A DNA stretch of 32,000 bases from Nitrosopumilales archaeon (GTDB lineage: Archaea; Thermoproteota; Nitrososphaeria; Nitrososphaerales; Nitrosopumilaceae). Of the stretch, positions 2,988 through 16,401 are shown one piece after another. The DNA lies in assembly GCA_007280335.1 (NCBI GenBank), contig QYQE01000045.1, forward strand, positions 12,158 to 44,157. Direction: 5' to 3'. The notes under the pieces are model-generated. The model ran no database searches, was not told the origin of the DNA, and worked only from the letters and a program-made list of their open reading frames with translations. How positions within the stretch are numbered: position 1 is the first letter of the stretch; each line of letters begins with the position of its first letter. Both the position numbers and the translations under genes were made by a program.

Positions 2988-5661
2988 GTAATGCGTCTTT
3001 TAGTTTTGTCACATCTTTTCCTCCGCCTTGACCAAAATTCTCATTTCCTCCTCCAGAACCGCCAAGGATTTTAGAAACATCACGAACTAAATCTCCTGCC
3101 TTCTTTGTTTTTATTGCCTCTGTACCTGCAAATGCAACTATTCGTATGCCGCTGTTTTTCAAAATCAATGCACAGTATATCATAGATGGGTCTATCATGA
3201 TTGTTTGCTCTCCTACCGCAATATGAAATTCTTCATCCATCTCCTCATCTATTGTAGTGTATAGTTTTACTTTGCCAAGGTTTTTTGCCTGAGATATTAC
3301 GTTTTTTGCAGTAGACTCTGATACTCGTTTGATCAATTGTTTTAGCTTCTTCTTGGATAAATCAGCATCTTTCATGGTGTGTTCAAATGATTCCATTATC
3401 TTTTCTTTACTAGAACCTAGTAACTTTACAATTTGTGAAATTTTTCTATCTTGATTTTGAGTATATTTTATTGCAGTCTCACCTGAAACAAATTCGATTC
3501 TTACAACCCCATCCTGAATTCTTTCTGCCTTTGTAATTTTAATGAGTCCTATCTCTCCTGTTTTTTTTACATGTGTTCCTCCACAAGCTTCCACATCATA
3601 ACCTTCAATGTTTACAATTCTGACTAGCTTTACTGGAACTACACCACCTTGGTAAATCCTAAATCCGTATTTTTGTTCAGCATGTCCTCTTTCAAACTCA
3701 TTAATCATGATAGGAATATCTCTTCTAATAGTAAAATTTGCCAAATCTTCAATTTTCATTATGTCATCTTCAGTCAAGTTAGAATGATGTGTTATGTCCA
3801 ATCTACCATATTCTTTTTCCTTAAATGCAGAGTGTTGCCAAATCCATGATCCTAGAGTTTTTCGTGCAGAAGCATTTAGCACGTGAGTGCTACTATGATT
3901 TCTTGTTATTCCATATCTACGAGATACATCTATTGCACATCTCACAGTTTCTCCCTCTTTCAGTGTGCCATCTTTGAGTTCATGAACTACAACATTTCCA
4001 TGTTTATTTACATCAATAACATCAAAGGCACAGATCTTTCCATGGTCTGGTTCCTGACCTCCTCCTCTTGGATAAAATGATGTCTTGTCTAAAACTACTA
4101 GTTTGTTTTTTATTATTTTGAGAACCTTGGCCTCAAACTCTTCTGGATCATGTTTATAGTATAATAGTTCGGTATCTGGAATTCCTTTCAAGTCAAGATC
4201 TTCTTTTTTCTCTTGTTTTTCTGATTGATGTAATTCTGATAATCTTTCATAAAAGGTAGGAGGAATTTCAGAAATTATTTGAGTCTCTTTTAAAAAGTCA
4301 GGTGTTATTCCGTCAGATTCGTATAGCCTGATAAGATCGTCAACGGTCAATTTTTTGTCTTGACTCTTTAGAGTACTTGCAATGCTTTTCATTCTTGTTT
4401 TTGATTCATTGTATCGCTCTCTTTCTATTCCAACTATGGTCTTGACATCATTTCTTGTTTCTTCTAATTCTGGATAAGTTGATTTTAGATAATCAATATG
4501 CATGTCAACTAATTCTTTTAGATCAAAATTCCAGCCAAACCTGTCCATTGTAGCTACTGTTCTTCTTAGAATCATTCGCAAGTTGTATCCCCCACCTACA
4601 TTACTTGGCAGGGCACCATCAGAAATTGCAAATACCAAAGTCCTAAGATGATCAGCAATTAAATAAATCCCCTCAAGTGGTGCTATTGTTTTATTGAATC
4701 TGTTTTCATCAATCCCTGCTTGTTTTGCAGCAATTTTTCTTGCAATTGATATATCGTTTGAATCGCTAAGGCTTTTTGCTAACGATATGAAATAATTTGA
4801 TATCGTTTTAGAATCAAGATCGATTCCTGCCTTTTGAATGAGATTTTTTGTAATAGGGCCAAAACAACAATCGTATGCAGTTGGGGTGCCCATAGTAATC
4901 CAAGCAAACCTCTCAAGGCCTGCTCCCATGTCTATTATTTTTTGATCCAAAACAGAATAGTTGTCTAGATCTCCCTGAAATTCAGTAAAGACTGCATTTC
5001 CAAGTTCCAGTCCTCTAACGAAATATTCCAATGAAGAACCAAATGAACCGCCCCCCGCCCAGACATCCTCTACAAAAACTACCTCTTTTTTATCAATACC
5101 AAATCTTTCTGTCAGTAGTCTGAAATCTAGATCAACACATTTGTCTTTCCAATATCCTTGCGAGTTTGGAATGCTGTGCTGACCAATCATACAAAAACTA
5201 GAAAAGTGTCTTCCGGTAACTCCAACATTTTCAATGTCTTTGAATCTAAGACAAATTTGTGGTACTACTAGAGGATTTGCAGGAAATTCAAAAACAACCT
5301 TGGATCCCATCACTCTTTGAAAGTCTACAATTGATGCTATTGTAAAATACAGATCATCGCGCCATCTGCAGACAACTGGGTATCTGCTAACTGACCTGTG
5401 ACCGTTTTGTACAAAAAAAGATTCTACTTCTCTCCATGCTTGAACATAATCAAATCTTTTCTTTGTAGGGGGATTACCAATAAATGAATAATTATTTTCA
5501 GAATCATCAGGACAAAAGTTTTGATTAATATCAAGAGTCCAGAAATATCGTTTGCATTTTGCGCATGATTTTCTTACAAATCCCTCATTTTCAAATAATG
5601 CTACTTTGTAATACCTATCGGGATCGGCAGAAAACTTTGCAAGAATTTGTTCCTTATCCAT
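2956..5661 (-). CDS. alaS: Alanyl-tRNA synthetase
   Basis: Long ORF 2956-5712. It has an archaeal AlaRS N-terminus (FVRKSCAKCKRYFWT), editing-domain motifs HxxxH (HSSTH) and CxxxH (EACGGTHV), and a Gly-rich C-terminal domain (GGSGGGNENFGQGGG). I set the start to ATG 5661 (MDKEQILAKF...), because the 5712 ATG would abut the divergent neighbour. Confidence 0.95.
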   Translation of the reverse strand: MDKEQILAKFSADPDRYYKVALFENEGFVRKSCAKCKRYFWTLDINQNFCPDDSENNYSFIGNPPTKKRFDYVQAWREVESFFVQNGHRSVSRYPVVCRWRDDLYFTIASIVDFQRVMGSKVVFEFPANPLVVPQICLRFKDIENVGVTGRHFSSFCMIGQHSIPNSQGYWKDKCVDLDFRLLTERFGIDKKEVVFVEDVWAGGGSFGSSLEYFVRGLELGNAVFTEFQGDLDNYSVLDQKIIDMGAGLERFAWITMGTPTAYDCCFGPITKNLIQKAGIDLDSKTISNYFISLAKSLSDSNDISIARKIAAKQAGIDENRFNKTIAPLEGIYLIADHLRTLVFAISDGALPSNVGGGYNLRMILRRTVATMDRFGWNFDLKELVDMHIDYLKSTYPELEETRNDVKTIVGIERERYNESKTRMKSIASTLKSQDKKLTVDDLIRLYESDGITPDFLKETQIISEIPPTFYERLSELHQSEKQEKKEDLDLKGIPDTELLYYKHDPEEFEAKVLKIIKNKLVVLDKTSFYPRGGGQEPDHGKICAFDVIDVNKHGNVVVHELKDGTLKEGETVRCAIDVSRRYGITRNHSSTHVLNASARKTLGSWIWQHSAFKEKEYGRLDITHHSNLTEDDIMKIEDLANFTIRRDIPIMINEFERGHAEQKYGFRIYQGGVVPVKLVRIVNIEGYDVEACGGTHVKKTGEIGLIKITKAERIQDGVVRIEFVSGETAIKYTQNQDRKISQIVKLLGSSKEKIMESFEHTMKDADLSKKKLKQLIKRVSESTAKNVISQAKNLGKVKLYTTIDEEMDEEFHIAVGEQTIMIDPSMIYCALILKNSGIRIVAFAGTEAIKTKKAGDLVRDVSKILGGSGGGNENFGQGGGKDVTKLKDALLAAEKSILEK

Positions 5662-5717
5662 CTTTGAGAAGTTTTCGGAATGACCGATATTAAGTATTAT
5701 GAAGCAACACATTAAAT

Positions 5718-6248
5718 ATGATCTTTTTTGAGAATGTTGCTATGTTCAGTAAAAAAACCTGGAAAGAAGGAGATCATGCTTTCATATCCGTTCAGGATGG
5801 AGAATTTAGAAATATTGTTGTTGGAGTGGTTACAGGCGTTGAAGATTCCAAGATAGGTATTAACGGTATTATAATAAACGCAGTTGGCCTCAAAAATAAA
5901 GTTGCTCAAGGCAAGGCAGGGCAGCAATCTATAGGACAGCTGAAAAATCCAGACCCAAAAGATTGCATATTGGCTTTGATATACAGAGTAGAACATGATA
6001 ATTATACTGGTGTCTTTGACGTAAACATTGATCCTGTAGTAAAAATACACAAAAGAATTCATAATGTAATTGATGGGTGGGTAAGAGAATCAATTCCAGA
6101 AATGATAAACAACGTTCTTTCACTGCCTGATGGTACAGAAAAAGATCAAGCAAAAAGAATTCTCAAGCAAAGAATGGATACCTTATATGATAAAGAATTG
6201 AAAAAATATATGTACTCTATTTGTCGCAGTCTTAAGATTCTAAACTAG
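5718..6248 (+). CDS. Hypothetical protein (orphan, no recognisable motif)
   Basis: 176-aa ORF with balanced, charged composition and a helical-looking C-terminus (DQAKRILKQRMDTLYDKELKKYMY). The competing antisense ORF 5712-6062 is F/Y/N/I-rich junk. An alternative ATG lies at 5742 (MFSKKTWKEG). Confidence 0.6.
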   Translation: MIFFENVAMFSKKTWKEGDHAFISVQDGEFRNIVVGVVTGVEDSKIGINGIIINAVGLKNKVAQGKAGQQSIGQLKNPDPKDCILALIYRVEHDNYTGVFDVNIDPVVKIHKRIHNVIDGWVRESIPEMINNVLSLPDGTEKDQAKRILKQRMDTLYDKELKKYMYSICRSLKILN

Positions 6249-6726: not shown

Positions 6727-7833
6727 TTAATGGACTTTGTAAAGAAATGCATCAGCGCCATCCCAACCATAATCGACTATTCCTCCAAGATCTCCTTTGC
6801 ATAAAATTTTTCGCTCTATTGACTCTCTCATTAATTGCATTGAGCTTACGGCGCCAGTATTCCCAGTTTCTCTCATTAGTTCATAAGTTAGTTTTGAATG
6901 GTTTTTTGTTATATGGCACCTTTCTCTAACATAATCAACAAACATCTTGCCTGCAGGATGAAGCCCCCAGAACTTTACTTTGTTGAAATCCTTAGGAAAT
7001 TTTTGTTTAATATAACAAACGTTTTGAGCAGAAAGATCTGCAGCAGTTTCTCTTAAAATTTTTGTATTTACAACCATATCGAAGGCTATCCTATGATAAC
7101 TATTAGGTGAAAGATTTATTGTGGCTTTTTTATAACCATTCATATTAGTATCTTTTCGTGAAGAAATTGTTTTAATGTCTATTTGTGCTATACATTTGTT
7201 TGATCCTTCTGATTGTGATACTAATGCACCAGATACAGCATCACTAAAAATTAAGAAATAAATAAAATTATTAAAATCATTTCTGTTTTTTATAGAAACG
7301 CGATCAATTTGTTTTATTCTATCCAAAAACCAACTTGTATAATATGTGCCTATAAGAATAAGCACATCTCCTTTGTAACCCAACGCAAAGTGTCCTGAAG
7401 CATTTCTAAGAGCTTCAGAGAAAGAAGAACATGCCATACCTTGGAAATTTTGTGTACGAACATCCTTGTTTAATCCCAGTCTAGCTGTAATTTCTACAGT
7501 GGGTGAAGGATCAAGATACTGCTGATTGTCGTTTATAGTTATAAGAAGGCTGATATCATCAGGTTTCCTTTTTGAGGAACGTAAGATCTTTTCAGCAATT
7601 TTTACATACATGTCATTAAGTCTAACGTCAGGTACCAAGTATTGTGGATCTTTAATTTTCACTTTTGATAAATCGTATGCTTTGAAAATTCTTTCTATAC
7701 CTAATTCTTTTTTGGCAAATTTTTTTACATCCTCATCTAATTTATCACTGAATAAACCATCCACAAGTTCTTCTACGCTATAATAATAGTCTGAGAAATT
7801 AACTTCTATATTTGAAATATCGATTACTGGCAT
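6727..7833 (-). CDS. Thiolase-fold condensing enzyme, type III polyketide synthase / FabH-like (Cys-His-Asn triad)
   Basis: 368 aa. Candidate triad: Cys135 in QGMACSSF (codon 7429-7431), His292 in FWGLHPAG, Asn325 in TGNTGAVSS. LIFSDAVSGALV corresponds to the (L/I)FGDGA loop. FWxxHP(G/A)G and the 33-residue His-to-Asn spacing match chalcone-synthase-type enzymes. ATG start; 3 nt downstream of the LLM gene stop. Confidence 0.75.
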   Translation of the reverse strand: MPVIDISNIEVNFSDYYYSVEELVDGLFSDKLDEDVKKFAKKELGIERIFKAYDLSKVKIKDPQYLVPDVRLNDMYVKIAEKILRSSKRKPDDISLLITINDNQQYLDPSPTVEITARLGLNKDVRTQNFQGMACSSFSEALRNASGHFALGYKGDVLILIGTYYTSWFLDRIKQIDRVSIKNRNDFNNFIYFLIFSDAVSGALVSQSEGSNKCIAQIDIKTISSRKDTNMNGYKKATINLSPNSYHRIAFDMVVNTKILRETAADLSAQNVCYIKQKFPKDFNKVKFWGLHPAGKMFVDYVRERCHITKNHSKLTYELMRETGNTGAVSSMQLMRESIERKILCKGDLGGIVDYGWDGADAFLYKVH

Positions 7834-7836
7834 ATC

Positions 7837-8772
7837 TTAAAAATTGTTTGCTAGATTATGTAACTTTTTAAAGAATTCAGTATTGTAACTGTTTCTTGGT
7901 AAATCAAAAGCTGAAACTACAGTTTTGATTTTAGTCCTATCGGAATACTCCATTATCTTCCTAGCGCATTCCTTAGCTCCACCAAAAATTGACAATTCTT
8001 CCACTAATTTATCACTAACTTGTTCTGATGCAGCAATAAGACCATACCTTATAAAATTCTCACGAATTAAACGAACTTCATTTTTATAGCCTGCTTTTTC
8101 TAAAGGTATAGAATAAAATTTATTCGCACCTACATAATTTGCGATAGTCATGCGTAAGGCATTTCTACTTTTTTCTTTTGAATCATCAACAAATGTTGGG
8201 AGGATCGAAATAATCTCAAATGAATTTTGATCTCTTCCTAAAGAAGATAATTTATTTCTAAGAATTTTAGTAATACGTCTGATTTCGCTTTCAGGTTTTA
8301 AAAAAAATATTACGCCATCAGCATGTTCTGCTGCGAGGTGAGTAATTTTATCACCTATCACCGCCCAAAAAATAGGACCTTTATATTGAAACTTTATGTA
8401 ATCAGTATACGTCATAATTCTTGATAATGGTTTCTCAAATTTCATACCATACATATTTTCAATAATAAGAGGGGCACTTGTTCCTAAACCCAGCACAAAT
8501 TTTCCGCCTGCCTTATAGTAGATCTCCCTAGAGAGTTTGAGTAACTTATCTTTACTCCTTGAAAAAATATTTACAATGCCAGTCCCTAATACCACATTTT
8601 CTACTTTTCCAGCTAGCCCTTGTAGAGCTTCAAAGGCATCGACCCCAATAAACTTCGGATGAGTTTCGGGAATAAAATAATAATTTAGCATCTGTGCATC
8701 TGCAATTATCGCTGCCTTTCTCACCGCAATTAAAGGCGCTCTTATACCAAGTTCTATACCTATACTTTGCAT
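7837..8772 (-). CDS. Luciferase-like monooxygenase (LLM) family oxidoreductase, possibly F420-dependent
   Basis: 311 aa. LLM/Mer-like features: N-terminal GIELG, IPETHP, VLGLGTS, and the C-terminal motif EELSIFGGAKECARKI, typical of LLM class F420-dependent oxidoreductases. Cofactor not determinable by eye. Confidence 0.8.
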   Translation of the reverse strand: MQSIGIELGIRAPLIAVRKAAIIADAQMLNYYFIPETHPKFIGVDAFEALQGLAGKVENVVLGTGIVNIFSRSKDKLLKLSREIYYKAGGKFVLGLGTSAPLIIENMYGMKFEKPLSRIMTYTDYIKFQYKGPIFWAVIGDKITHLAAEHADGVIFFLKPESEIRRITKILRNKLSSLGRDQNSFEIISILPTFVDDSKEKSRNALRMTIANYVGANKFYSIPLEKAGYKNEVRLIRENFIRYGLIAASEQVSDKLVEELSIFGGAKECARKIMEYSDRTKIKTVVSAFDLPRNSYNTEFFKKLHNLANNF

Positions 8773-8794: not shown

Positions 8795-8808
8795 CTAGTT
8801 TAAATGCT
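8795..8808 (-). promoter_or_regulatory. TATA-like box for the LLM / condensing-enzyme operon
   Basis: TTTAAAT (palindromic core TTTAAA, + strand 8799-8805) is centred about 30 nt upstream of the LLM ATG at 8772. It lies in the 101-bp gap after lpd. Confidence 0.35.
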
Positions 8809-8873
8809 TATTAGAAGATAAAAGCCAAAAAGAAGAGGAATAATTTTATCTATTAATCGAAGGCTATGGATTT

Positions 8874-10205
8874 CTAACGAATTGACTCGGTTTCTTTGAA
8901 AGGAAGATGTACAGCTTCACCACTAATATCCCTCAGAGCGTCTACAAATGATTCGGGGAGTGTAGGATGAGCATGTATTGTTTCAAAGATGTCTTCAATC
9001 TTTAGTTGCATTTTAATTGCAAGTCCTGCTTCGCCAATTATTTCCCCTGCATGCGGAGCAACTACGTAGGCTCCAACTAGTATATCGTTTCTCTCAAACA
9101 CCTTGACAAAGCCTCTAGTATCTCCTAAACAATTAGCTTTAGCACTTGCTGTAAGGGGAAATTGTCCAGATCTACCTTCCAACTTTCCTACAAATGCCAC
9201 TTCTGGATATGTAAATACACATACAGGTATGGAGCTATATTCCATCTTACTTTCTATTCCCATTAAATTTTGAGCAGCTATCTCTCCTTGTTTTGAGGCA
9301 ACGTGTGCAAGCTCATACATACCAGTGATATCTCCAATTGCAAAGATATTCTGAACTGTAGTCAGCATTTTCTCGTTGACAAGAATTCCGGTTTCATTGA
9401 ATTTTACACCAACATTATTTAATTCATCCGCGTTTAAATTAGGTCGCCTTCCTACGCAAATGAGTATTTTTTCTGCTTCTATATTTTCACCATTTACAAG
9501 AACCATGTTTTTTTCGATTGTTTCTACCTTTGACTTTGTCATTACTTTGATACCGTCTAGTCTCATGTACTTCTCAATAGTATTTCCAATTTCTTCTAGA
9601 TTATTAGGCAATAGATGATTCTCTGCCTCAATCAAGGAAACCTTGCATCCTAATGCATTTAAAATAGAAGCAAATTCACAACCACTGAAACCTCCACCAA
9701 TTATAATGATTGACTTTGGCAGATCCTCTAATTCTAGCACTGTAGTAGTTGATAGTATATTTTTGTTAAAATCATAATCAGGTAAACAAATAGGATAGCT
9801 ACCAGTAGCAATAACAATATGTTTTGCCTCTATTGTTTTTTGATTAACAACTATTTTATTTTGTGAAACTATACGTGCTTCGCCTACAATCAAATCAATA
9901 TGGTTACTTTCAAGGAGTAGTTTTATCCCGGAAGCAAGTTTATCAACTGTATTTTTCATTCTTAATCTTAAGAGTTTATAATCTAATTCAACCTGTGCAT
10001 TTAACCCATTTTTTTTAGAAGCCATTACTCTTCTCATTATGTCTCCCAATGAGTGAAGAAATTTAGTAGGAATACAGCCACGTTGTGTACAAGTTCCTCC
10101 AAGACCATTCTTTTCAATTAAACATATTTTGCCACCAAGCTGTGTAGCTCTAATAGCACAAGTATAACCACCTGGACCACCTCCAATTATCACTGCGTCA
10201 TACAT
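8874..10205 (-). CDS. lpd: Dihydrolipoyl dehydrogenase (E3 / glycine cleavage L protein)
   Basis: 443 aa. FAD-binding GGGPGG, redox disulfide GGTCTQRGCIPTK (CxxxxC), NAD fold IIGGGFSGCE, C-terminal His-Glu dyad HAHPTLPE. Confidence 0.93.
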   Translation of the reverse strand: MYDAVIIGGGPGGYTCAIRATQLGGKICLIEKNGLGGTCTQRGCIPTKFLHSLGDIMRRVMASKKNGLNAQVELDYKLLRLRMKNTVDKLASGIKLLLESNHIDLIVGEARIVSQNKIVVNQKTIEAKHIVIATGSYPICLPDYDFNKNILSTTTVLELEDLPKSIIIIGGGFSGCEFASILNALGCKVSLIEAENHLLPNNLEEIGNTIEKYMRLDGIKVMTKSKVETIEKNMVLVNGENIEAEKILICVGRRPNLNADELNNVGVKFNETGILVNEKMLTTVQNIFAIGDITGMYELAHVASKQGEIAAQNLMGIESKMEYSSIPVCVFTYPEVAFVGKLEGRSGQFPLTASAKANCLGDTRGFVKVFERNDILVGAYVVAPHAGEIIGEAGLAIKMQLKIEDIFETIHAHPTLPESFVDALRDISGEAVHLPFKETESIR

Positions 10206-10244: not shown

Positions 10245-10979
10245 TTACCTTCCAAAATTCCATTTGTCTGAAGAATATTTTTCTTTAGCTACTCTCTCAG
10301 TTTCAATTTCTTCTTTATTACTAAGTTTATCATCAATCAGTATTGCATGAAATTTTTCTCTAAATCCTTCTCTTAGAGCGATTACGACCTCCTCAAACGT
10401 CCTATCTAAGCCAAATACCCTTTGTCTTACATCAGTGATTAATTTGTCCCTCATCTTTTCGGGGGGAACTTTCAATACTGAAAACATTTTTTCAATATCT
10501 GTATTTAATAAAATGGTTCCATGTTGTAGCAGGATATTTTTCTTCCTTGTTTGAGCATTGCCGGAAACTTTCTTACCATTGACGACAATGTCATTCAGTG
10601 GAGAAAATTTTGCATTGAATCCAAATTTGTTAATAGCTATTATTATGGCATCACATATCAACTTGTAAGAATCAATTATGTTCTGCGGATATCTTTTTGT
10701 TATGAAAGAATAGGTTAATTCAGAATCATGTAAAACTGCTCCCCCACCTGTTATCCTCCTGACAACATCAATACCAAGGTTAGCACACTTTTTTACGTTG
10801 ACTTCCTCATTCAATCTCTGGAAATATCCAATTGATACAGCTGGAGGCTCCCATCCATAAAGTCTTAGAACTGGCACTTCAGTTGTACCTTTCATTAATA
10901 CTTCATCAAGTGCCATATTCCATGATGCGGTATTTTTACCAGTCTCCAAAACCCTGATCTTATTAAATTTGAAATTCAT
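10245..10979 (-). CDS. lplA: Lipoate-protein ligase A, catalytic (N-terminal) domain protein
   Basis: 244 aa. LRLYGWEPPAVSIGYFQ, RRITGGGAVLHD, KVSGNAQTRKKNILLQHGTILL (lipoyl/octanoyl-AMP-binding Lys motif). It lacks the C-terminal accessory domain, which is encoded by the adjacent gene. Confidence 0.9.
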   Translation of the reverse strand: MNFKFNKIRVLETGKNTASWNMALDEVLMKGTTEVPVLRLYGWEPPAVSIGYFQRLNEEVNVKKCANLGIDVVRRITGGGAVLHDSELTYSFITKRYPQNIIDSYKLICDAIIIAINKFGFNAKFSPLNDIVVNGKKVSGNAQTRKKNILLQHGTILLNTDIEKMFSVLKVPPEKMRDKLITDVRQRVFGLDRTFEEVVIALREGFREKFHAILIDDKLSNKEEIETERVAKEKYSSDKWNFGR

Positions 10980-10980
10980 T

Positions 10981-11259
10981 TCAATGAATCAAGCATCCAA
11001 GAATTGCTTTTGTCAATGACTCTGAATCGAAACCAAATGCCTGTGAATCATCTAGACTTTCTCGGATCTTTTGTATAAGGGAATTTTTCTCTAATTTTGT
11101 ATCAATTAGATTTGTTTCGAGTTTATCCAGACTATCTTCAGGATAAAGAAAAAAATCTCCAGTAATCTTTATAGAATGAATTGTGTTACTTATCTCATCA
11201 TATTCAAGGGCAATCTTGATTAATTTTTGTGACTTCAAAACATTATGTACTTTTCTCAT
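10981..11259 (-). CDS. lplB: Lipoate-protein ligase accessory (C-terminal) domain protein, LplB-like
   Basis: 92 aa, 1 nt upstream of lplA. GDFFLYPED resembles the LplA C-terminal domain. The arrangement matches the bipartite LplA/LplB of Thermoplasma acidophilum. Confidence 0.72.
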   Translation of the reverse strand: MRKVHNVLKSQKLIKIALEYDEISNTIHSIKITGDFFLYPEDSLDKLETNLIDTKLEKNSLIQKIRESLDDSQAFGFDSESLTKAILGCLIH

Positions 11260-11272
11260 AGGAATTCAGTTT

Positions 11273-12715
11273 TTAAATTTGTAAATTTTCATTATCATGA
11301 TTTTTTTGGGGATGAATCCATTTTAGATTTGGTTTTCTTGCAGCTGTCACCTCATCTAATCTGCCAATAGGTGTTGTATATGGAGCTCCTCTGACCAGTT
11401 CAGGGTTTTCTTTTATCTCATCAGAAATGACTCTTAATGTTAATGCAAATTTATCTAATGTTTCTTTACTTTCTGTCTCCGTTGGCTCAATCATTAATGC
11501 TTCATTAACAATAAGTGGGAAGTAAACAGTTGGTGGATGAAAACCATAATCCATAAGTCTCTTTGCAATATTCAGTGCACTCTTTTCACCAAATTTTTTT
11601 GAAGATATAACGAATTCATGAGCACATGTTCGATCATAAGGAAGCTCGTAAACATCCTTTAAGAGAGTAAGAAGATAATTGGCGTTCAAGACTGCATACT
11701 CTGATACTTTTCTGATATTGGTTCCCCAAGCCAAGATATACGAATATGCCCTAACAAGCATACCGAAATTCCCATAAAAGGATCGAATTCTTCCAACTGA
11801 CTTTCCCTTTGTATTATTTAGGATATACTTACTTTCTTGTTTAACTACTCTAGGTGTGGGTAAATAATCAGACAAAAATGACTTTACTCCCAGCACTCCA
11901 GCCCCAGGGCCACCTCCACCATGTGGAGTTGAAAAGCTCTTGTGCAAGTTCAAATGAATCATATCAAAGCCCTGATCACCAGGTCTAGTTATTCCAAATA
12001 ATGCATTCATATTGGCACCGTCACAATAGGTCAAAGTTCCGTTCTTATGAGCAAGATCACAAATATCCAGAATATTTTCTTCAAAGAGTCCAAGAGTGTT
12101 AGGGTTTGTTAACATTACAACTGCAACATCGGAGGAAAGTGATTGTTTGAATTTTTGTAGATCCATATTACCTCGTGAATCTGAAGGAATTACAATAGTA
12201 TCATGCTTACACATTGCTGCTGTTGCAGGATTTGTTCCATGTGCAGAATCAGGTATTATTGCCTTCGTTCTTTTTTCATTCCTTTCCTTAAAGTAAGCCT
12301 TTGATATCATTATTCCCAAAAGTTCACCTTGTGCTCCTGCTGCTGGTTGCAAGGAAAATACATCCATACCCGTTATCTCCTTTAATTGCTGCTCAAGCTC
12401 CCACATTAATTGAAGTGATCCTTGGATACAATCCATAGGAGAAAAAGGATGAAGATCCCGAAAACCTTCTAACCTGGCCACATCCTCGTTTATCTTTGGA
12501 TTGTACTTCATAGTACAAGAACCTAATGGATAAAATCCAACGTCAACTCCAAAGTTCTTTTTTGATAAATTAGTGTAATGTCTAATAACATCAATCTCGC
12601 TAACATTTGGAAGAGGTAAATTCGTTCTAGTAAGATCCTTTGGTAATGTTATGGAAATATCTTCATCAGATAGGTGACCTGAATTTTGTTCATCATACTC
12701 AAATATCAACTTCAT
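11273..12715 (-). CDS. gcvPB: Glycine dehydrogenase (decarboxylating) subunit 2 (P protein beta)
   Basis: 480 aa. PLGSCTMKYNP and a PLP-lysine region NLHKSFSTPHGGGGPG. ATGA overlap with gcvPA at 12712-12715. Confidence 0.95.
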   Translation of the reverse strand: MKLIFEYDEQNSGHLSDEDISITLPKDLTRTNLPLPNVSEIDVIRHYTNLSKKNFGVDVGFYPLGSCTMKYNPKINEDVARLEGFRDLHPFSPMDCIQGSLQLMWELEQQLKEITGMDVFSLQPAAGAQGELLGIMISKAYFKERNEKRTKAIIPDSAHGTNPATAAMCKHDTIVIPSDSRGNMDLQKFKQSLSSDVAVVMLTNPNTLGLFEENILDICDLAHKNGTLTYCDGANMNALFGITRPGDQGFDMIHLNLHKSFSTPHGGGGPGAGVLGVKSFLSDYLPTPRVVKQESKYILNNTKGKSVGRIRSFYGNFGMLVRAYSYILAWGTNIRKVSEYAVLNANYLLTLLKDVYELPYDRTCAHEFVISSKKFGEKSALNIAKRLMDYGFHPPTVYFPLIVNEALMIEPTETESKETLDKFALTLRVISDEIKENPELVRGAPYTTPIGRLDEVTAARKPNLKWIHPQKNHDNENLQI

Positions 12716-13974
12716 AATGTTTCCCCTATTATTGATACATAGGACTCAATATCCTGAATCGTATTTGTTTCAGTGCAACAAATTAGTATTTTATCATCTC
12801 CTAATTCTAGACCACCAAGTATTCCTTTTTCACTTAGAATTGAAATAATTTCATCAGAAGGTTTTGGTGCCCTTAAAAGGAATTCATTGTAGAATGGTTT
12901 TTTGTTTAAAGGTTCAAAACCAATATTCTTCAATTTATCATGTAACAAATGTGCCCTACTGTAAGAAAGTTTTGCTGCAGTGGTAAGCCCACTTCTTCCC
13001 ATGAGTGCCAAATAAATAGTTGCAGCAAGAGCCATCAATCCTTGGTTTGTTGTTATATTGCTAGTAGCCCTTTCTCTTCTTATGTGTTGTTCACGCGCTT
13101 GAAATGTTAGGACAAATCCTTCATTTCCTTTAGAATCTGTGGTCATACCGCAAATTCTACCAGGAATTTTCTTGAGCAAAAAATCCTTAACAGCTATGAA
13201 TCCTAGATATGGGCCTCCAAAACTTATTGGAATACCAAATGATTGACCCTCTCCAACAACTATGTCTGTACCATAACTTGCTGGAGCTTTTAGCAATGCT
13301 AGAGACGTAGGTTCAACAACACAAGTAATAAACAATGCTCCAACTTTATGTGCACGTTCTGATAGTTCCCATGGATTCTCTATATTTCCATAGAAATCAG
13401 GATTCTGCGTTATTACACATGCTGTCTTATCATCAATTTCATTTGTTAACTCAAGATCAGCTCCATCACAATATGTCTTTAAGACTTCAGAATATTGAGG
13501 ATGTAAACCTTCCTGAACAAAAACACGTTTCCGTCCATTATGTGATGAAGAAAGTAAAGCTGCTTCTGACAAGGCAGATGCACCATCATATAATGATGCA
13601 TTTGCAACATCCATTCCAGTAAGTAAACATATGAAAGATTGAAATTCATATATTGCTTGGAGAGTGCCTTGATTCATTTCCGCTTGGTAAGGAGTATATC
13701 CTGTAGAAAACTCTCCCCTCATAAGCAAATGATTCACTGCAGAAGGAATGTAATGGTTGTAAGAGCCAGCTCCCACAAAGTATTTTAAAATTATATTTTT
13801 TTTGGCTAAATCTTGCATATGCCGCATTATCTCAAATTCACTCTTTGGTATAGAAAGATTCAATTTTCTTTTGAGGGCTGGCTTGAATTCCTTAACTAAC
13901 TCATCTATTGAGCTTATTCCGATTCGTTTTAACATTTCATTTCTTTCTATGTCAGTAATAGGTATGTAATCCAT
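12712..13974 (-). CDS. gcvPA: Glycine dehydrogenase (decarboxylating) subunit 1 (P protein alpha)
   Basis: 420 aa. FxGAGSYNHYIP, TPYQAEMNQGTLQAIYEFQ. Typical split P protein gene order. Confidence 0.95.
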   Translation of the reverse strand: MDYIPITDIERNEMLKRIGISSIDELVKEFKPALKRKLNLSIPKSEFEIMRHMQDLAKKNIILKYFVGAGSYNHYIPSAVNHLLMRGEFSTGYTPYQAEMNQGTLQAIYEFQSFICLLTGMDVANASLYDGASALSEAALLSSSHNGRKRVFVQEGLHPQYSEVLKTYCDGADLELTNEIDDKTACVITQNPDFYGNIENPWELSERAHKVGALFITCVVEPTSLALLKAPASYGTDIVVGEGQSFGIPISFGGPYLGFIAVKDFLLKKIPGRICGMTTDSKGNEGFVLTFQAREQHIRRERATSNITTNQGLMALAATIYLALMGRSGLTTAAKLSYSRAHLLHDKLKNIGFEPLNKKPFYNEFLLRAPKPSDEIISILSEKGILGGLELGDDKILICCTETNTIQDIESYVSIIGETL

Positions 13975-13984
13975 AACCAGTCAC

Positions 13985-14386
13985 CTATTTTATTTTCCCA
14001 ACGAAATTATCATATTCTGCTTTAGTCATTAAATTTTCAAATTCATTGATATTAGACGGTTTTATTTTTACCATCCACCCTAATTCATATGAGGATTGGT
14101 TTAGCCATTCAGGGTGCTCGAGTAAATCTTCATTGATTTCAACAACCTTTCCACTTATTGGACAGTAAATATCGGAAGAAGCTTTTATTGAATCAACTAT
14201 CGCCATTTCTTGCATCTGTTTATATTCATTACCAATTTTTGGTAATTCTATTGAAACTATATCTCCAAGTTGTTTCTGTGCAAAATCTGAAATTCCTATT
14301 ACTGCGAGTCCTTCCCTTATTGTCACCCATTCGTGTTCTTTGGAAAACCTAAACTCTTCTGCCACAACGGGTTTGTCATTTTCCAC
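13985..14386 (-). CDS. gcvH: Glycine cleavage system H protein (lipoyl carrier)
   Basis: 133 aa. KEHEWV and the lipoyl-lysine motif VDSIKASSDIYCPISGKV. The start codon at 14386 is GTG, and there is no in-frame ATG before the lipoyl domain. Confidence 0.93.
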   Translation of the reverse strand: MENDKPVVAEEFRFSKEHEWVTIREGLAVIGISDFAQKQLGDIVSIELPKIGNEYKQMQEMAIVDSIKASSDIYCPISGKVVEINEDLLEHPEWLNQSSYELGWMVKIKPSNINEFENLMTKAEYDNFVGKIK

Positions 14387-14395
14387 TATAAAACC

Positions 14396-15460
14396 CTAAT
14401 TTCGTTTATAAAATCTAGTACTACAAACTCTTGCCTTATACAGTTTACCTTCAATATCGATCTCAATTAATTGATTTAGCTCTACTTGCAAAGGTACAAA
14501 ACAAAAACCAATTGATTTCTTAAGAGTTGGAGAAAAGCTACCACTAGTTACAAAACCCGCCTTTGAACCATCTACTAGAACTTCATTACCATGTCTAGCT
14601 ATTCTTCTTTCCAGCACCTCAAATCCTACTAGTTTACGATTTACTTTTCCATTCAATAGTGCCATCTTACCAATGAATTCCTTTTCGAGCTTTACGGTCC
14701 ACTTTAGTGGTACCTCAAGAGGAGTTGTATTTTCATCCATATCATTTCCATAAAGCATAAGACCTGCTTCCAGTCTGAGTGTGTCTCTGCAACCCAGACC
14801 TGATGGTTTAATATTGAATCTAGATGCTGATTGCATAATCTTATTCCAAATCTCTACCCTTGAAGAATCAAAAAATATTTCAAAACCATCTTCCCCCGTA
14901 TATCCTGTTCTTGAAATCATGCAATCCGTTTGAAAGATGTCTCCAGAAATAAGATCAAATGGTCTTAATAGTTCTAAATTAGATTCACTTATTTCTTGCA
15001 TAGCATTACGTGCAAGTGGACCTTGAATAGCAAGTAAGGCAATCTCATCACTAACATTTTCGATCTTAGATGACTGTGAATGCTGAATTACCCATTGGAA
15101 ATCCTTCTCTCTATTTGATGCGTTAACTACAAGAAGGAAATCTTCTTTATTAATTCTATAAACTATCACATCATCAACAATGCCTCCACTTTCATAACAC
15201 ATAGGAGAATACAGGCCATGACCATCATTTAGTTTTGAGATATCATTGGTAACTAAATTTTGTATAGCATCATAAGCATTGGGGCCTTTGATTTTAAACC
15301 TACCCATATGTGAAACATCAAACAATCCGACATTTTTTCTAACATTGGCATGCTCATCAATTATTCCTGAATATTGCAAAGGCATCTCCCATCCGTGAAA
15401 ATCAACTATCTTTGCATTAAGTGATTTATGAATTTCATAAAAAGGAGTTCTCATTGGCAT
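14396..15460 (-). CDS. gcvT: Aminomethyltransferase (glycine cleavage T protein)
   Basis: 354 aa. TPFYEIH...FHGWEMPLQY, GLFDVSHMGRF, TGYTGEDGFE. ATG start at 15460. Confidence 0.95.
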   Translation of the reverse strand: MPMRTPFYEIHKSLNAKIVDFHGWEMPLQYSGIIDEHANVRKNVGLFDVSHMGRFKIKGPNAYDAIQNLVTNDISKLNDGHGLYSPMCYESGGIVDDVIVYRINKEDFLLVVNASNREKDFQWVIQHSQSSKIENVSDEIALLAIQGPLARNAMQEISESNLELLRPFDLISGDIFQTDCMISRTGYTGEDGFEIFFDSSRVEIWNKIMQSASRFNIKPSGLGCRDTLRLEAGLMLYGNDMDENTTPLEVPLKWTVKLEKEFIGKMALLNGKVNRKLVGFEVLERRIARHGNEVLVDGSKAGFVTSGSFSPTLKKSIGFCFVPLQVELNQLIEIDIEGKLYKARVCSTRFYKRN

Positions 15461-15483
15461 TTACTGTAATAGTACCTGAACTC

Positions 15484-15493
15484 TTATTATTAT
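15484..15493. promoter_or_regulatory. Single central TATA-like box (TTATTATTAT) shared by divergent gcvT and lipA
   Basis: The 53-bp spacer 15461-15513 has only this AT-only element. Its centre is about 28 nt from the gcvT ATG (15460) and about 26 nt from the lipA ATG (15514). That matches the archaeal TATA-to-TSS distance if both mRNAs are leaderless. Confidence 0.45.
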
Positions 15494-15513
15494 GTGTGAT
15501 AATCTCTCAAGGG

Positions 15514-16401
15514 ATGGAATTAATTAGAAAACCTACATGGCTTAGAGTAAAAATACCGTCTGGCGAAAATTATGTAAAAGTGAAACAAACACTTGGATTA
15601 GAATATCTTCATACAGTTTGTGAAGAAGCAAAATGTCCTAACATAGCAGAGTGTTGGGGATCTGGAACAGCTACTATTATGATATTGGGTGACATATGTA
15701 CAAGGGGATGTAGATTTTGTGCAGTTACAAGTGGTAAACCTGTATTTCTTGATCCGGAGGAACCTAATAGAGTTGCCAAAGCAATCAAATCATGGGGATT
15801 AAGATATGTAGTAATTACTGCTGTTTGTAGGGATGACTTGCCAGATGGAGGAGCAGATCATATGGCAAAGACGATAAAAGCTGTAAAATTGGAATGCCCA
15901 CAAACAATAGTAGAGTCATTAATTCCTGATTTTAGAGGATTTGATGATTCAATAAGTAAAATAATTGATTCACAGCCAGACGTTATAAGTCATAACATAG
16001 AGACTGTAAAAAGACTGACTCCCAAAATTAGAGATGCGCGAGCATCTTACGAACAAACATTACACATTCTTAAAAGAGTAAAAGAAATTGATTCAAGAAT
16101 TTACACGAAATCTTCAATAATGCTAGGCCTTGGAGAGAATGAGGAAGAAGTTTTTCAGACAATAAAAGATCTGAGATCAGTTGGGGTTGATATATTGACC
16201 ATGGGGCAATATCTTCAACCTACTCAGAAGCATTTGCCAGTTGTAGAATACTTGCCACCACAAAAATTCTATGATTATGAGATGAATGCAACACAAATGG
16301 GTTTTCTCTATGTGGCATCTGGTCCACTCGTCAGAAGTTCTTATAGAGCTGCAGAATTCTTTCTTGAAAATGCAATACTACGAAATAACGATATTAGATA
16401 A
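15514..16401 (+). CDS. lipA: Lipoyl synthase (radical SAM)
   Basis: Auxiliary cluster motif CEEAKCPNIAEC and radical-SAM CTRGCRFC. The ORF-track start at 15421 would overlap gcvT. The ATG at 15514 (MELIRKPTWLRVKIP) matches the usual LipA N-terminus. Confidence 0.93.
   Translation: MELIRKPTWLRVKIPSGENYVKVKQTLGLEYLHTVCEEAKCPNIAECWGSGTATIMILGDICTRGCRFCAVTSGKPVFLDPEEPNRVAKAIKSWGLRYVVITAVCRDDLPDGGADHMAKTIKAVKLECPQTIVESLIPDFRGFDDSISKIIDSQPDVISHNIETVKRLTPKIRDARASYEQTLHILKRVKEIDSRIYTKSSIMLGLGENEEEVFQTIKDLRSVGVDILTMGQYLQPTQKHLPVVEYLPPQKFYDYEMNATQMGFLYVASGPLVRSSYRAAEFFLENAILRNNDIR

What the first reader, a model, noticed from the sequence alone, without database searches (positions are those of the whole stretch)
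6727..8772. Two-gene operon: chalcone-synthase-like Cys-His-Asn condensing enzyme plus luciferase-like oxidoreductase in an archaeon
Seen in sequence: the two ORFs are 3 nt apart on the minus strand and have their own TATA-like box. They lie 101 bp downstream of, and co-directional with, gcvT-H-PA-PB-lplB-lplA-lpd. The 368-aa protein has a candidate triad of Cys135 (GMACSSF), His292 (FWGLHPAG) and Asn325 (GNTGAVSS). The His-to-Asn spacing is 33 residues. That equals Medicago CHS2 (Cys164/His303/Asn336) and differs from E. coli FabH (His244/Asn274, 30 residues).

Established knowledge: archaea lack a classical FAS II/ACP system. Type III PKSs use acyl-CoA directly. Bacterial type III PKS plus flavoprotein cassettes (Streptomyces SrsABC, for example) make alkylresorcinols and alkylquinones. 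LLM-family F420 enzymes include a ketoreductase acting on polyketide lipids (mycobacterial phthiodiolone ketoreductase).

Inference, two hypotheses: (a) a minimal pathway for a phenolic, pyrone or quinone lipid; or (b) an ACP-independent source of a short or medium acyl chain such as octanoate, feeding the adjacent LplA/B-LipA lipoylation route, whose acyl donor in archaea is unclear.

Weak side observation: the gene looks more AT-rich than its neighbours. By hand count, 7261-7320 has 11 G+C of 60, against 27 of 60 for 18841-18900 in rpl11.
Basis: partly seen in the sequence, partly recalled or inferred. Interest (0 to 1): 0.72.

Follow-up and report, generated by a model that had tools for sequence, protein, structure and literature searches.

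The report
Orphan condensing-enzyme pair beside lipoate genes
Ammonia-oxidising archaea carry a conserved, uncharacterised gene pair (a chain-building enzyme of the fatty-acid/polyketide type plus an F420-type reductase) attached to their lipoic-acid and glycine-cleavage genes, which makes it a concrete candidate for how archaea without a fatty-acid synthase obtain the eight-carbon chain of lipoate.

Summary
Two minus-strand ORFs, 3 nt apart, lie 101 bp downstream of gcvT-H-PA-PB-lplB-lplA-lpd, and lipA is divergent upstream. The organism is a Nitrosopumilaceae archaeon.

The 368-aa protein has a high-confidence CHS/KAS III-type thiolase fold. Its Cys135/His292/Asn325 triad is invariant and aligns to the catalytic residues of solved enzymes. 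It falls below every curated family threshold and is about equidistant from type III PKS, FabH and plant 3-ketoacyl-CoA synthase. The family is very small and seen only in Nitrososphaerota.

The 311-aa partner is an LLM-fold protein. Its closest structures are all F420 enzymes: Mer, then the β-keto reductase PepI.

The LLM lies immediately upstream of the KS in 29 of 30 readable loci. In 24 of 27 loci with enough flank, the pair touches the lipA/lplAB/gcv block, in three different gene orders. The nearest outgroup condensing enzymes are coupled to a 3-hydroxyacyl-CoA dehydrogenase or an MDR reductase.

Best reading (about 0.45): an ACP-independent, malonyl-CoA-driven acyl-CoA elongation module that supplies octanoyl for GcvH lipoylation. 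An aromatic-polyketide role is less likely. Nothing has been shown biochemically.

The parts
6727..7833 (-). KS368: orphan Cys135-His292-Asn325 condensing enzyme with a CHS/KAS III/KCS-like thiolase fold
   Evidence: ORF. Only sub-threshold Pfam and NCBIfam hits. AF2 pLDDT 92.4. Foldseek top hits are type III PKSs at TM 0.75-0.83, with KAS III nearly tied. Triad invariant.
7837..8772 (-). LLM311: luciferase-like (TIM-barrel) oxidoreductase, most probably F420-dependent, coupled to KS368 by a 3-nt gap
   Evidence: Pfam Bac_luciferase 93.9 bits. The ten best NCBIfam hits are all F420-LLM classes. The only PDB sequence hits are Mer. AF2 pLDDT 91.9. The top 18 Foldseek hits are all F420 enzymes, Mer then KvPepI.
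8798..8809 (-). BRE/TATA-like motif AAGCATTTAAAC, 26 nt upstream of the LLM311 start codon: a probable internal promoter
   Evidence: Sequence. Conserved in L001-L003, with variants in L006 and L007. In L010, L008/9 and L014 the lpd-LLM gap is 34 nt or less, or the genes overlap, so the pair is co-transcribed with lpd there.
8814..8840 (-). T-rich tract just after the lpd stop codon (ttcctcttctttttggcttttatcttc): a possible archaeal oligo-T terminator or attenuator
   Evidence: Sequence only. Not tested.
8874..10205 (-). lpd (dihydrolipoamide dehydrogenase, the L-protein of the glycine cleavage system)
   Evidence: Pfam Pyr_redox_2 and Pyr_redox_dim.
10245..10979 (-). lplA (catalytic subunit of lipoate/octanoate-protein ligase)
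   Evidence: Pfam LplA-B_cat, 168 bits.
10981..11259 (-). lplB (C-terminal-domain subunit of lipoate-protein ligase)
   Evidence: Pfam Lip_prot_lig_C.
11273..13974 (-). gcvPB (11273-12715) and gcvPA (12712-13974)
   Evidence: Pfam GDC-P and GcvP2_C.
13985..14386 (-). gcvH (lipoyl carrier H-protein, the presumed acceptor of the C8 chain)
   Evidence: Pfam GCV_H, 136 bits.
14396..15460 (-). gcvT
   Evidence: Pfam GCV_T and GCV_T_C.
15421..16401 (+). lipA (classical lipoyl synthase), divergent from gcvT. The true start is probably about 30 codons downstream of the listed GTG.
   Evidence: Pfam LIAS_N and Radical_SAM. Homologues are 288-299 aa.

Best explanation
KS368 and LLM311 form a two-enzyme, ACP-independent acyl-thioester elongation module. 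It serves cofactor biosynthesis, most probably by making the octanoyl chain that LplA/LplB attach to GcvH and that LipA converts to lipoyl.

Proposed mechanism:
1. Cys135 of KS368 is acylated by a short acyl-CoA starter. His292 and Asn325 promote decarboxylation of malonyl-CoA, which gives a 3-ketoacyl-CoA two carbons longer. The triad, fold and conservation are shown. The substrates are inferred. Malonyl-CoA is abundant in these archaea because acetyl-CoA carboxylase drives their 3-hydroxypropionate/4-hydroxybutyrate cycle (established knowledge).
2. LLM311 uses F420H2 to reduce the KS product, most likely the beta-keto group. The LLM fold and its closest similarity to F420 enzymes are shown. 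The substrate is inferred.
3. Dehydration and enoyl reduction are borrowed from promiscuous enzymes of the carbon-fixation cycle, namely crotonyl-CoA hydratase and acryloyl-CoA-reductase-type MDRs. This step is inference only.
4. After three rounds the C8 acyl group is released and ligated to GcvH by LplAB, and LipA inserts the sulfurs. These genes are present in the cluster. The flux through them is inferred.

The same module could also feed pimeloyl-CoA for biotin.
For: KS chemistry:
- High-confidence CHS/KAS III fold.
- Invariant Cys/His/Asn aligned to the catalytic residues of solved enzymes.
- Phe196 aligns with the gatekeeper Phe of 2-pyrone synthase, the equivalent of CHS Phe215.
- His-Asn spacing of 33, as in the CoA-using CHS and KCS, not the 30 of FabH.
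- With a family-only profile the best solved relatives are plant 3-ketoacyl-CoA synthases, which are acyl-CoA elongases (4e-13).

Reductase:
- LLM fold with the top 18 structural neighbours all F420 enzymes.
- The second neighbour group, KvPepI, is a proven F420H2-dependent beta-keto reductase (PMC12081711).
- AOA make F420 (PMC7554672).

Module:
- LLM directly upstream of KS in 29 of 30 loci, with gaps of -8 to +13 nt.
- Identities of the two proteins co-vary, r = 0.98.
- The nearest outgroup KS, P0134, overlaps by 4 nt an upstream 3-hydroxyacyl-CoA dehydrogenase in the same position. P0142 is followed by an MDR reductase. This suggests a KS-plus-reductase module whose reductase has been swapped.

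Link to lipoate:
- 24 of 27 loci with at least 3 kb of flank have the pair abutting lipA/lplAB/gcv/lpd.
- There are three gene orders: A, after lpd; B, before lipA, in L011 and L013; C, between lpd and lipA, in L014.
- In L008/9 the far flank is replaced by mobile elements, yet the pair stays with the cluster.
- In B-type loci a much more divergent version of the pair (33-41% identity, against a predicted 62%) sits at the other edge of an otherwise closely related cluster.

Need:
- Archaea lack ACP, and the octanoyl donor is acknowledged as unknown (PMC10332631).
- The AOA ancestor lost the 2-oxoacid dehydrogenase complex (PMC7554672).
Against: - There are no biochemical data.
- Gene order across the whole region, including ribosomal proteins and tRNA synthetases, is conserved in Nitrosopumilaceae. 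A-type adjacency alone is therefore weak evidence.
- The D-type lineage (L015, L016, L021, L041) keeps the pair but has no lipoate or GCS gene within 10 kb.
- In L012 the KS looks intact while the LLM is degraded.
- No locus encodes a thioesterase or CoA-transferase to give the free acid that LplA-type ligases use.
- No dedicated dehydratase or enoyl reductase is present.
- The top structural matches of the KS are aromatic or pyrone-forming type III PKSs.
- The LLM is closest to Mer, a C1-pterin reductase, and shares its Glu in the 'GIE' motif. That is equally compatible with other chemistry.
- Thaumarchaeota reportedly have homologues of the thiolase/DUF35-type archaeal FAS, which could supply fatty acids instead (10.1101/2024.07.05.601840).
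- Chain length cannot be inferred from the sequence.
Confidence: 0.45

Rival explanations
1. A minimal type III polyketide pathway. KS368 iteratively condenses malonyl-CoA onto an acyl-CoA starter and cyclises the product to an alkylpyrone, alkylresorcinol or quinone-type lipid. LLM311 tailors it by reduction or hydroxylation.
For: The Foldseek top 30 are almost all type III PKSs: ORAS, Pks11, biphenyl synthase and CHS, at TM 0.75-0.83. The best single-sequence PDB hit is the alkylpyrone synthase Pks11. The nearest outgroup proteins score best against DpgA, a type III PKS, in NCBIfam, though far below its cutoff. The His-Asn spacing is 33, as in CHS.
Against: The pair is a vertically inherited, single-copy core feature of small, streamlined genomes, embedded in a primary-metabolism cluster. 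No methyltransferase, hydroxylase or transporter accompanies it in any of the four context types. Chal_sti_synt_N is not detected, and the C-terminal domain is below threshold. The GFGPG loop is replaced by DYGW(D/E)G. The outgroup partners are 3-hydroxyacyl-CoA dehydrogenase and an MDR reductase, which process reduced chains. KAS III and KCS score as well or better by profile.
Confidence: 0.15
2. A BioZ-like role. KS368 condenses glutaryl-CoA, or malonyl-CoA methyl ester, with malonyl-CoA towards pimeloyl-CoA for biotin. Biotin is essential for the acetyl-CoA/propionyl-CoA carboxylase of these autotrophs. This role could replace or add to octanoyl synthesis.
For: Thaumarchaeota have bioF, bioA, bioD and bioB but no known early steps, and the origin of pimeloyl-CoA is an open question (PMC6138646). 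BioZ is a FabH-like Cys/His/Asn enzyme (same paper). The D-type loci show that the pair need not sit with lipoate genes.
Against: No bio gene lies within 10 kb in any locus examined. The linked ligase is LplA/LplB with Lip_prot_lig_C, alongside LipA and GcvH, which makes it specifically the lipoate machinery.
Confidence: 0.12
3. LLM311 is a Mer-like F420-dependent methylene-tetrahydrofolate (or pterin) reductase that processes the C1 unit released by the glycine cleavage system. KS368 is functionally unrelated or has another role.
For: Mer is the only PDB sequence hit (1.5e-9) and the best structural match, at TM 0.79-0.83. Glu7 in 'GIEL' aligns with Mer Glu6 in 'GIEF', the residue targeted in the E6Q mutant entry 8qq8. 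The gene follows the GCS genes.
Against: LLM and KS are coupled by -8 to +13 nt in 29 of 30 loci, including the D-type loci that have no gcv genes nearby. The two proteins co-evolve, r = 0.98. The Mer equivalog models are missed by a wide margin, 56.6 bits against a 348.7 cutoff. Identity to Mer is only 17-20%.
Confidence: 0.07
4. The adjacency to the lipoate and GCS genes is a historical accident of a slowly rearranging genome region. The pair makes some unrelated small molecule or acts as an acyltransferase.
For: The whole 30-kb region is syntenic across Nitrosopumilaceae. Orders A, B and C are circular permutations that could arise from a few local events. The D-type lineage is unlinked.
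Against: Adjacency survives at least two different breakpoints and the replacement of the far flank. In the B type a strongly divergent copy sits next to the same cluster.
Confidence: 0.15

Closest known systems
Type III polyketide synthases (CHS, 2-pyrone synthase, M. tuberculosis Pks11/Pks18, N. crassa ORAS)
   Same: Same thiolase alpha-beta-alpha-beta-alpha fold, with the best Foldseek hits at TM 0.75-0.83. Cys-His-Asn triad with 33-residue His-Asn spacing. A Phe equivalent to CHS Phe215. Stand-alone protein of about 360-400 aa. Presumably CoA-linked substrates.
   Different: Only 13-17% identity. The Pfam N-terminal domain is undetected and the C-terminal domain is below threshold. The GFGPG loop is replaced by DYGW(D/E)G. 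There is an extra segment around the near-invariant Trp168. The genomic context is primary cofactor metabolism, not tailoring enzymes.
Plant 3-ketoacyl-CoA synthase (KCS/FAE1, condensing enzyme of the acyl-CoA elongase)
   Same: Best-scoring solved relative with a family-only profile (9kqg, 4e-13). Cys-His-Asn triad with 33-residue spacing. It works like the proposed mechanism, acyl-CoA plus malonyl-CoA giving a 3-ketoacyl-CoA that separate reductases then reduce, with no ACP (function from established knowledge).
   Different: KCS is about 500 aa with an N-terminal membrane anchor, and it makes very long chains. KS368 is 368 aa with no hydrophobic N-terminus. Pfam FAE1_CUT1_RppA scores 19.5 bits against a cutoff of 27.
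KAS III / FabH and BioZ
   Same: Same fold and triad. Foldseek E-values are nearly tied with type III PKSs (3gwe, 3gwa). It is second by profile (3il4, 2.5e-11). 44 of 45 family members weakly hit ACP_syn_III_C. In bacteria and mitochondria, FAS II supplies octanoyl-ACP for lipoate, and BioZ supplies pimeloyl-ACP, so the physiological logic is the same.
   Different: FabH has a His-Asn spacing of 30 and uses malonyl-ACP. Archaea have no ACP (PMC10332631). The NCBIfam FabH models score 30-40 bits against cutoffs of 249-292.
F420-dependent LLM oxidoreductases: Mer, KvPepI, Adf, Fgd, mycobacterial phthiodiolone ketoreductase
   Same: Same TIM-barrel LLM fold. The top 18 structural hits are F420 enzymes. 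PepI is an F420H2-dependent beta-keto reductase acting after a condensing enzyme (PMC12081711). LLM311 has a Mer-like N-terminal 'GIE' Glu and a near-invariant His38.
   Different: Identity is 14-20%. All NCBIfam F420-LLM subfamily cutoffs are missed. Neither the cofactor nor the substrate has been shown. No other LLM is known to be coupled to a KAS III/CHS-like enzyme in a lipoate cluster; this statement rests on my own knowledge plus the negative literature searches.
Archaeal thiolase/DUF35 fatty acid synthase complex of Sulfolobus acidocaldarius (bioRxiv 10.1101/2024.07.05.601840)
   Same: ACP-independent, CoA-based chain elongation in an archaeon. That preprint proposes it as a source of precursors for lipoate and biotin.
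   Different: The Sulfolobus system uses a non-decarboxylative thiolase with NAD(P)H-dependent SDR and MDR reductases. The authors state that no decarboxylating condensing enzyme was found there. The system here would be malonyl-CoA-driven and F420-dependent.

Membership tests
Type III polyketide synthase (CHS-like) | Cys-His-Asn catalytic triad at the CHS positions, with His-Asn spacing of about 33 | tested here: met
   C135, H292 and N325 are invariant. They align to the triad of Pks11 and 2-PS. The spacing is 33.
Type III polyketide synthase (CHS-like) | Pfam Chal_sti_synt_N and Chal_sti_synt_C at or above gathering score | tested here: not met
   The C-terminal domain scores 21.0 bits against a cutoff of 27, and the N-terminal domain is not detected. 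Only 1 of 45 members hits the N-terminal domain, at E = 0.002.
Type III polyketide synthase (CHS-like) | Conserved GFGPG loop near the C-terminus and gatekeeper Phe215/Phe265 (CHS numbering, from established knowledge) | tested here: inconclusive
   The loop is DYGW(D/E)GA, not GFGPG. F196 aligns with 2-PS Phe220, the equivalent of CHS Phe215. The Phe265 equivalent cannot be placed.
Type III polyketide synthase (CHS-like) | Iterative condensation followed by cyclisation to an aromatic or pyrone product | not testable with these tools
   This needs enzymology.
KAS III (FabH) | NCBIfam FabH models at or above cutoff | tested here: not met
   PRK09352 scores 40 bits against 249. TIGR00747 scores 30.4 against 292.
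KAS III (FabH) | His-Asn spacing of 30 and use of malonyl-ACP | tested here: not met
   The spacing is 33, and FabH shows a 3-residue gap in the alignment. Archaea have no ACP (PMC10332631). The absence of an ACP gene in this genome was not tested.
Plant-type 3-ketoacyl-CoA synthase (FAE1/KCS) | Pfam FAE1_CUT1_RppA at or above gathering score, plus an N-terminal membrane anchor | tested here: not met
   19.5 bits against a cutoff of 27. 24 of 45 members hit weakly. The N-terminus, MPVIDISNIEVNFSDYYYS, is not hydrophobic.
   KS368 has no HMG_CoA_synt hit. Thiolase_N is hit weakly by 2 of 45 members. The triad is Cys-His-Asn.
Luciferase-like monooxygenase superfamily (LLM) | Pfam Bac_luciferase at or above gathering score, with a TIM-barrel fold | tested here: met
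   93.9 bits against a cutoff of 27.9. AF2 pLDDT is 91.9, with LLM structures as the matches.
F420-dependent LLM class | Membership of an F420-LLM subfamily model, and F420 rather than FMN binding | tested here: inconclusive
   The ten best NCBIfam hits are F420 classes (2e-28 to 1e-11), against 8e-4 or worse for FMN classes, but all fall below their cutoffs. The top 18 structural neighbours are F420 enzymes. Cofactor binding was not tested.
Mer (methylene-H4MPT reductase) | Equivalog models TIGR03555 / PRK02271 at or above cutoff | tested here: not met
   56.6 bits against 348.7, and 79.8 against 276. Identity is 17-20%.

The most novel reading that the evidence does not exclude
Ammonia-oxidising archaea possess a dedicated, minimal, ACP-independent and F420-dependent fatty-acyl elongation system. 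It consists of a decarboxylating CHS/KCS-like condensing enzyme plus an LLM beta-keto (or enoyl) reductase and borrows the remaining steps from the HP/HB carbon-fixation cycle. Its physiological purpose is to make the C8 chain of lipoate, and possibly the C7 chain of biotin. That would make it an archaeal functional analogue of mitochondrial FAS II, and the first decarboxylative fatty-acid-type condensing enzyme with an assigned role in archaea.
Probability: 0.35. Interest if true: 0.85.

Novelty: new variant of a known kind. Interest (0 to 1): 0.68.

Why it matters
Lipoate is essential for the glycine cleavage system. In bacteria and mitochondria its octanoyl chain comes from ACP-based FAS II. 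Archaea lack ACP, and recent papers explicitly leave the donor unknown (PMC10332631; 10.1101/2024.07.05.601840).

Ammonia-oxidising archaea are chemolithoautotrophs that grow in mineral media and are among the most abundant cells in the ocean, so they must make the chain de novo.

This finding gives a specific, clonable two-gene candidate. It is conserved across the group and physically tied to lipA, lplAB and gcvH. That turns an open question into direct experiments: an in vitro assay with acyl-CoA, malonyl-CoA and F420H2, and complementation of lipoate or octanoate auxotrophs.

It would also extend F420 biochemistry to primary fatty-acyl metabolism. It would add a fourth branch, beside type III PKS, KAS III and KCS, to the Cys-His-Asn condensing enzymes. 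It may bear on the equally unsolved origin of pimeloyl-CoA for biotin in Thaumarchaeota (PMC6138646).

Tried and rejected
- **HMG-CoA synthase or thiolase identity.** Rejected. There are no such domain hits and the triad is Cys-His-Asn.
- **Foreign origin inferred from AT-richness.** Rejected. GC3 is within the neighbours' range and the family is inherited vertically.
- **Assigning the KS to one named family.** No result. Pfam, NCBIfam, PDB sequence and profile searches and Foldseek give near-ties among type III PKS, KAS III and KCS.
- **Taxonomic identification of the D-type and B-type lineages from neighbour proteins.** No names were returned beyond 'Thaumarchaeota/Nitrososphaerota archaeon'.
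- **First metagenome scan, with a profile that was too diverse.** Failed. The second mostly returned marine A-type loci.
- **The genome-contig scan was run with a single protein.** It returned only 7 close loci, so no genome-wide presence/absence profile against lipA, lplA or bioF could be built.
- **Literature searches for any prior description of this pair in AOA.** Nothing found in the held library. That library omits most subscription-journal papers.
- **sigma-70 promoter/terminator scan.** Not used, because it does not apply to archaeal promoters.


Full report
**Observation**

The window is a housekeeping region of a Nitrosopumilaceae (ammonia-oxidising) archaeon. Loci from Nitrosopumilaceae, Nitrosotenuis and Nitrosotalea MAGs are collinear with it at 60-90% protein identity. 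One metagenome contig (L027) is 98-100% identical.

KS368 is at 6727-7833(-) and LLM311 is at 7837-8772(-), 3 nt apart. They lie 101 bp downstream of lpd, in the run gcvT-gcvH-gcvPA-gcvPB-lplB-lplA-lpd, and a classical lipA is divergent from gcvT.

A BRE/TATA-like motif, AAGCATTTAAAC, sits 26 nt before the LLM start codon. It is conserved in the closest loci. In other lineages the lpd-LLM gap is 34 nt or less, or the genes overlap, so the pair is co-transcribed with lpd there.

At gene level the AT-richness is mild and absent at third codon positions, so it says nothing about origin.

**The condensing enzyme**

KS368 has only sub-threshold hits to ACP_syn_III_C, Chal_sti_synt_C and FAE1_CUT1_RppA in Pfam, and to FabH and DpgA models in NCBIfam. 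Scanning 45 family members individually does not change this.

An AlphaFold model built on 37 homologues is confident, with pLDDT 92.4 and pTM 0.92. It matches the CHS/KAS III thiolase fold. The top PDB hits are type III PKSs (ORAS, Pks11, biphenyl synthase, CHS, Steely1) at TM 0.75-0.83 and 13-17% identity. KAS III structures fall within a factor of about 15 in E-value.

A profile made only of family members ranks plant 3-ketoacyl-CoA synthases first (4e-13), then FabH (2.5e-11), then type III PKSs (3e-10). The family is therefore an orphan branch, roughly equidistant from the three known Cys-His-Asn families.

- Cys135, His292 and Asn325 are invariant down to 30% identity.
- They align to the catalytic residues of solved enzymes.
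- Phe196 aligns with the CHS Phe215-equivalent.
- The 33-residue His-Asn spacing matches the CoA-using CHS and KCS rather than FabH, which has 30.
- The CHS GFGPG loop is replaced by DYGW(D/E)G.

The family is small. An exhaustive profile search of 1.84 billion representative proteins found 17 with E < 1e-30. Every member with a source name is Thaumarchaeota/Nitrososphaerota.

**The partner**

LLM311 is a clear Bac_luciferase-fold protein, at 93.9 bits. Its ten best NCBIfam hits are all F420-dependent LLM classes, though all fall below their cutoffs, and FMN classes score about 20 orders of magnitude worse. Its only PDB sequence hits are Mer.

The AF2 model (pLDDT 91.9) has F420 enzymes as its 18 best structural neighbours: eight Mer chains at TM 0.79-0.83, then KvPepI. 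KvPepI is an experimentally characterised F420H2-dependent beta-keto reductase that acts on condensing-enzyme products, with His62 as proton donor (PMC12081711).

LLM311 has a near-invariant His38 and a Glu7 that aligns with Mer Glu6. AOA are known to encode F420 biosynthesis and several luciferase-like hydride transferases (PMC7554672). F420 dependence is therefore well supported but not shown. The bond that is reduced cannot be read from the sequence.

**Genomic context, the main new evidence**

I compared 38 loci carrying a family member.

- The LLM lies directly upstream of the KS in 29 of the 30 loci that show at least 900 bp of upstream sequence, with gaps of -8 to +13 nt.
- The one exception, L012, carries a degraded LLM remnant.
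- Identities of the two proteins to the window's co-vary, r = 0.98 over 13 loci that are not phylogenetically independent.

Of 27 loci with at least 3 kb of flank, 24 have the pair abutting the lipoate and glycine-cleavage genes. Three gene orders occur:

| Type | Gene order | Loci |
|---|---|---|
| A | lipA< >gcvT-H-PA-PB-lplB-lplA-lpd-LLM-KS | window and most loci |
| B | LLM-KS> <lipA >gcvT-...-lpd | L011, L013 |
| C | gcvH-...-lpd-LLM-KS> <lipA >gcvT | L014 |

In L008 and L009 the far flank has been replaced by transposases, a ParE toxin and a TnpB-like gene, yet the pair remains attached to lpd.

In the B-type loci the GCS and lipoate proteins are 64-78% identical to the window's, as close as those of Nitrosotalea and Nitrosotenuis. 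Their LLM and KS are only 33-41% identical. The value predicted from the other loci is 62%, with a residual SD of 3.6. The B-type KS clade is basal in a neighbour-joining tree. Whether this reflects replacement, ancient paralogy or acceleration is unresolved. In each case a divergent version of the module sits next to the same cluster.

A fourth lineage (D: L015, L016, L021, L041; GC 43-56%) keeps the pair between an M50 peptidase and a nucleotidyltransferase, with no lipoate gene within 10 kb. I could not determine whether those genomes have lipA or lplA elsewhere.

**Outgroup**

The nearest non-family relatives are 21-26% identical and do reach the Pfam CHS and KAS III thresholds. Two of them show informative partners.

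- P0134 overlaps by 4 nt an upstream 3-hydroxyacyl-CoA dehydrogenase, in the position the LLM occupies here.
- P0142 is followed 7 nt later by an MDR zinc-ADH-type reductase and preceded by succinyl-CoA-synthetase-like genes.

This pattern points to reduced-chain, CoA-thioester chemistry: a condensing enzyme plus a beta-keto or enoyl reductase, with the reductase replaced by a non-homologous F420 enzyme in the AOA family. It does not point to aromatic polyketide formation.

**Interpretation**

The best-supported reading is an ACP-independent elongation module. KS368 performs a malonyl-CoA-driven Claisen condensation on an acyl-CoA. LLM311 reduces the product with F420H2. The remaining dehydration and reduction are borrowed from the HP/HB-cycle enzymes that these autotrophs already have. 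That last step is inference from established knowledge of the cycle and was not tested here. The product serves LplAB, GcvH and LipA.

This fits a recognised gap. Archaea lack ACP, archaeal lipoate ligases are thought to need free octanoate, and the donor is unknown (PMC10332631). The only described archaeal FAS uses a non-decarboxylative thiolase, and its authors note the absence of decarboxylating condensing enzymes in Sulfolobus (10.1101/2024.07.05.601840). The AOA ancestor lost the 2-oxoacid dehydrogenase complex (PMC7554672), so the GCS cluster is where lipoate-related genes would be expected to gather.

I put about 0.45 on the lipoate link. I put about 0.8 on the narrower claim that the pair is a condensing-enzyme-plus-reductase module acting on CoA thioesters.

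**Caveats and rivals**

- Whole-region synteny is conserved in Nitrosopumilaceae, so A-type adjacency alone is weak evidence.
- The D-type loci are unlinked.
- No locus encodes a thioesterase, dehydratase or enoyl reductase.
- The best structural hits of the KS are pyrone- and resorcinol-forming PKSs.
- The LLM is most like Mer, so a C1-reductase role next to the GCS cannot be excluded. The tight LLM-KS coupling away from gcv genes argues against it, however.
- A BioZ-like role in pimeloyl-CoA synthesis is a serious alternative or additional function. Thaumarchaeota have bioFADB but no known early steps (PMC6138646). No bio gene is linked in any locus, though.
- Thaumarchaeal homologues of the thiolase/DUF35 FAS might make the pair unnecessary for octanoate.

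**Comparison and novelty**

By function, the pair is predicted to work like the plant KCS-based elongase or FabH-initiated FAS II, feeding lipoate as mitochondrial FAS II does. By membership, KS368 fails the tested defining criteria of type III PKS (domain thresholds and GFGPG loop), KAS III (model cutoffs, spacing, ACP) and KCS (domain threshold, membrane anchor). LLM311 is an LLM but not Mer.

I found no description of this pair in the held literature. I rate it a new variant of a known kind: known catalytic machinery, a new family, a new reductase partner and a new physiological context.

Interest is fairly high. It makes the open question of the archaeal octanoyl donor directly testable in a globally important group. 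The functional claim rests on context and homology only.

Noticed in passing
window 5718-6248 (+): A 176-aa ORF has no Pfam hit. It is nevertheless conserved at 48-75% identity beside the ribosomal P1 stalk protein gene in every A-type locus. It is a conserved hypothetical protein of Nitrosopumilaceae.
   Followed up: partly
L011 9098-11113 and L013 9080-11113: The B-type loci carry LLM and KS only 33-41% identical to the window's, while the adjacent gcv, lpl and lipA proteins are 64-78% identical. The pair also sits on the opposite edge of the cluster, convergent with lipA. This could be xenologous replacement, ancient paralogy or acceleration; it is unresolved.
   Followed up: partly
L012 9437-9903: The LLM upstream of an apparently intact KS is a degraded remnant. 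Fragments matching residues 4-20, 20-67 and 230-329 lie in different frames, and the middle is missing. This is either decay of the module in that organism or an assembly artefact.
   Followed up: partly
L008/L009 11100-21098: Immediately downstream of the KS, the usual P1/hyp176/AlaRS/LeuRS flank is replaced by a mobile-element island. It holds a ParE toxin, a Cas12f1-like TnpB, DDE transposases, DUF3800 and a DNA methylase.
   Followed up: no
L013 13125-18708: About 5.5 kb of ORFs without Pfam hits is inserted between gcvT and gcvH, splitting the glycine-cleavage operon.
   Followed up: no
L017 3464-5376; L019 4735-6543: The nearest outgroup condensing enzymes are coupled to reductases. One overlaps by 4 nt a 3-hydroxyacyl-CoA dehydrogenase. 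The other is followed 7 nt later by an MDR zinc-ADH-type reductase and sits next to succinyl-CoA-synthetase-like genes. These may be further uncharacterised CoA-based elongation modules in other uncultured prokaryotes, probably archaea.
   Followed up: partly
window 15421-16401 (+) and 2956-5712 (-): Two start-codon calls look too long. lipA as listed starts at GTG 15421 and overlaps the start of gcvT, whereas homologues are 288-299 aa. The alanyl-tRNA synthetase ORF begins with 17 odd residues before a plausible Met ('MDKEQ') and overlaps the leucyl-tRNA synthetase ORF (78-2987) by 32 nt.
   Followed up: no
L027 (Ga0105164_10000193), whole locus: This metagenome contig is 98-100% identical at protein level to the window over about 17 kb. 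It comes from the same population as the window's source.
   Followed up: no
window 7837-8772 (-), residues 4-11 and 35-39: LLM311 carries a Mer-like N-terminal 'GIEL' motif, in which Glu7 aligns with Mer Glu6. It also has a near-invariant 'PETHP' His38. These are candidate catalytic acid residues whose roles could discriminate C=O, C=C and C=N reduction.
   Followed up: partly
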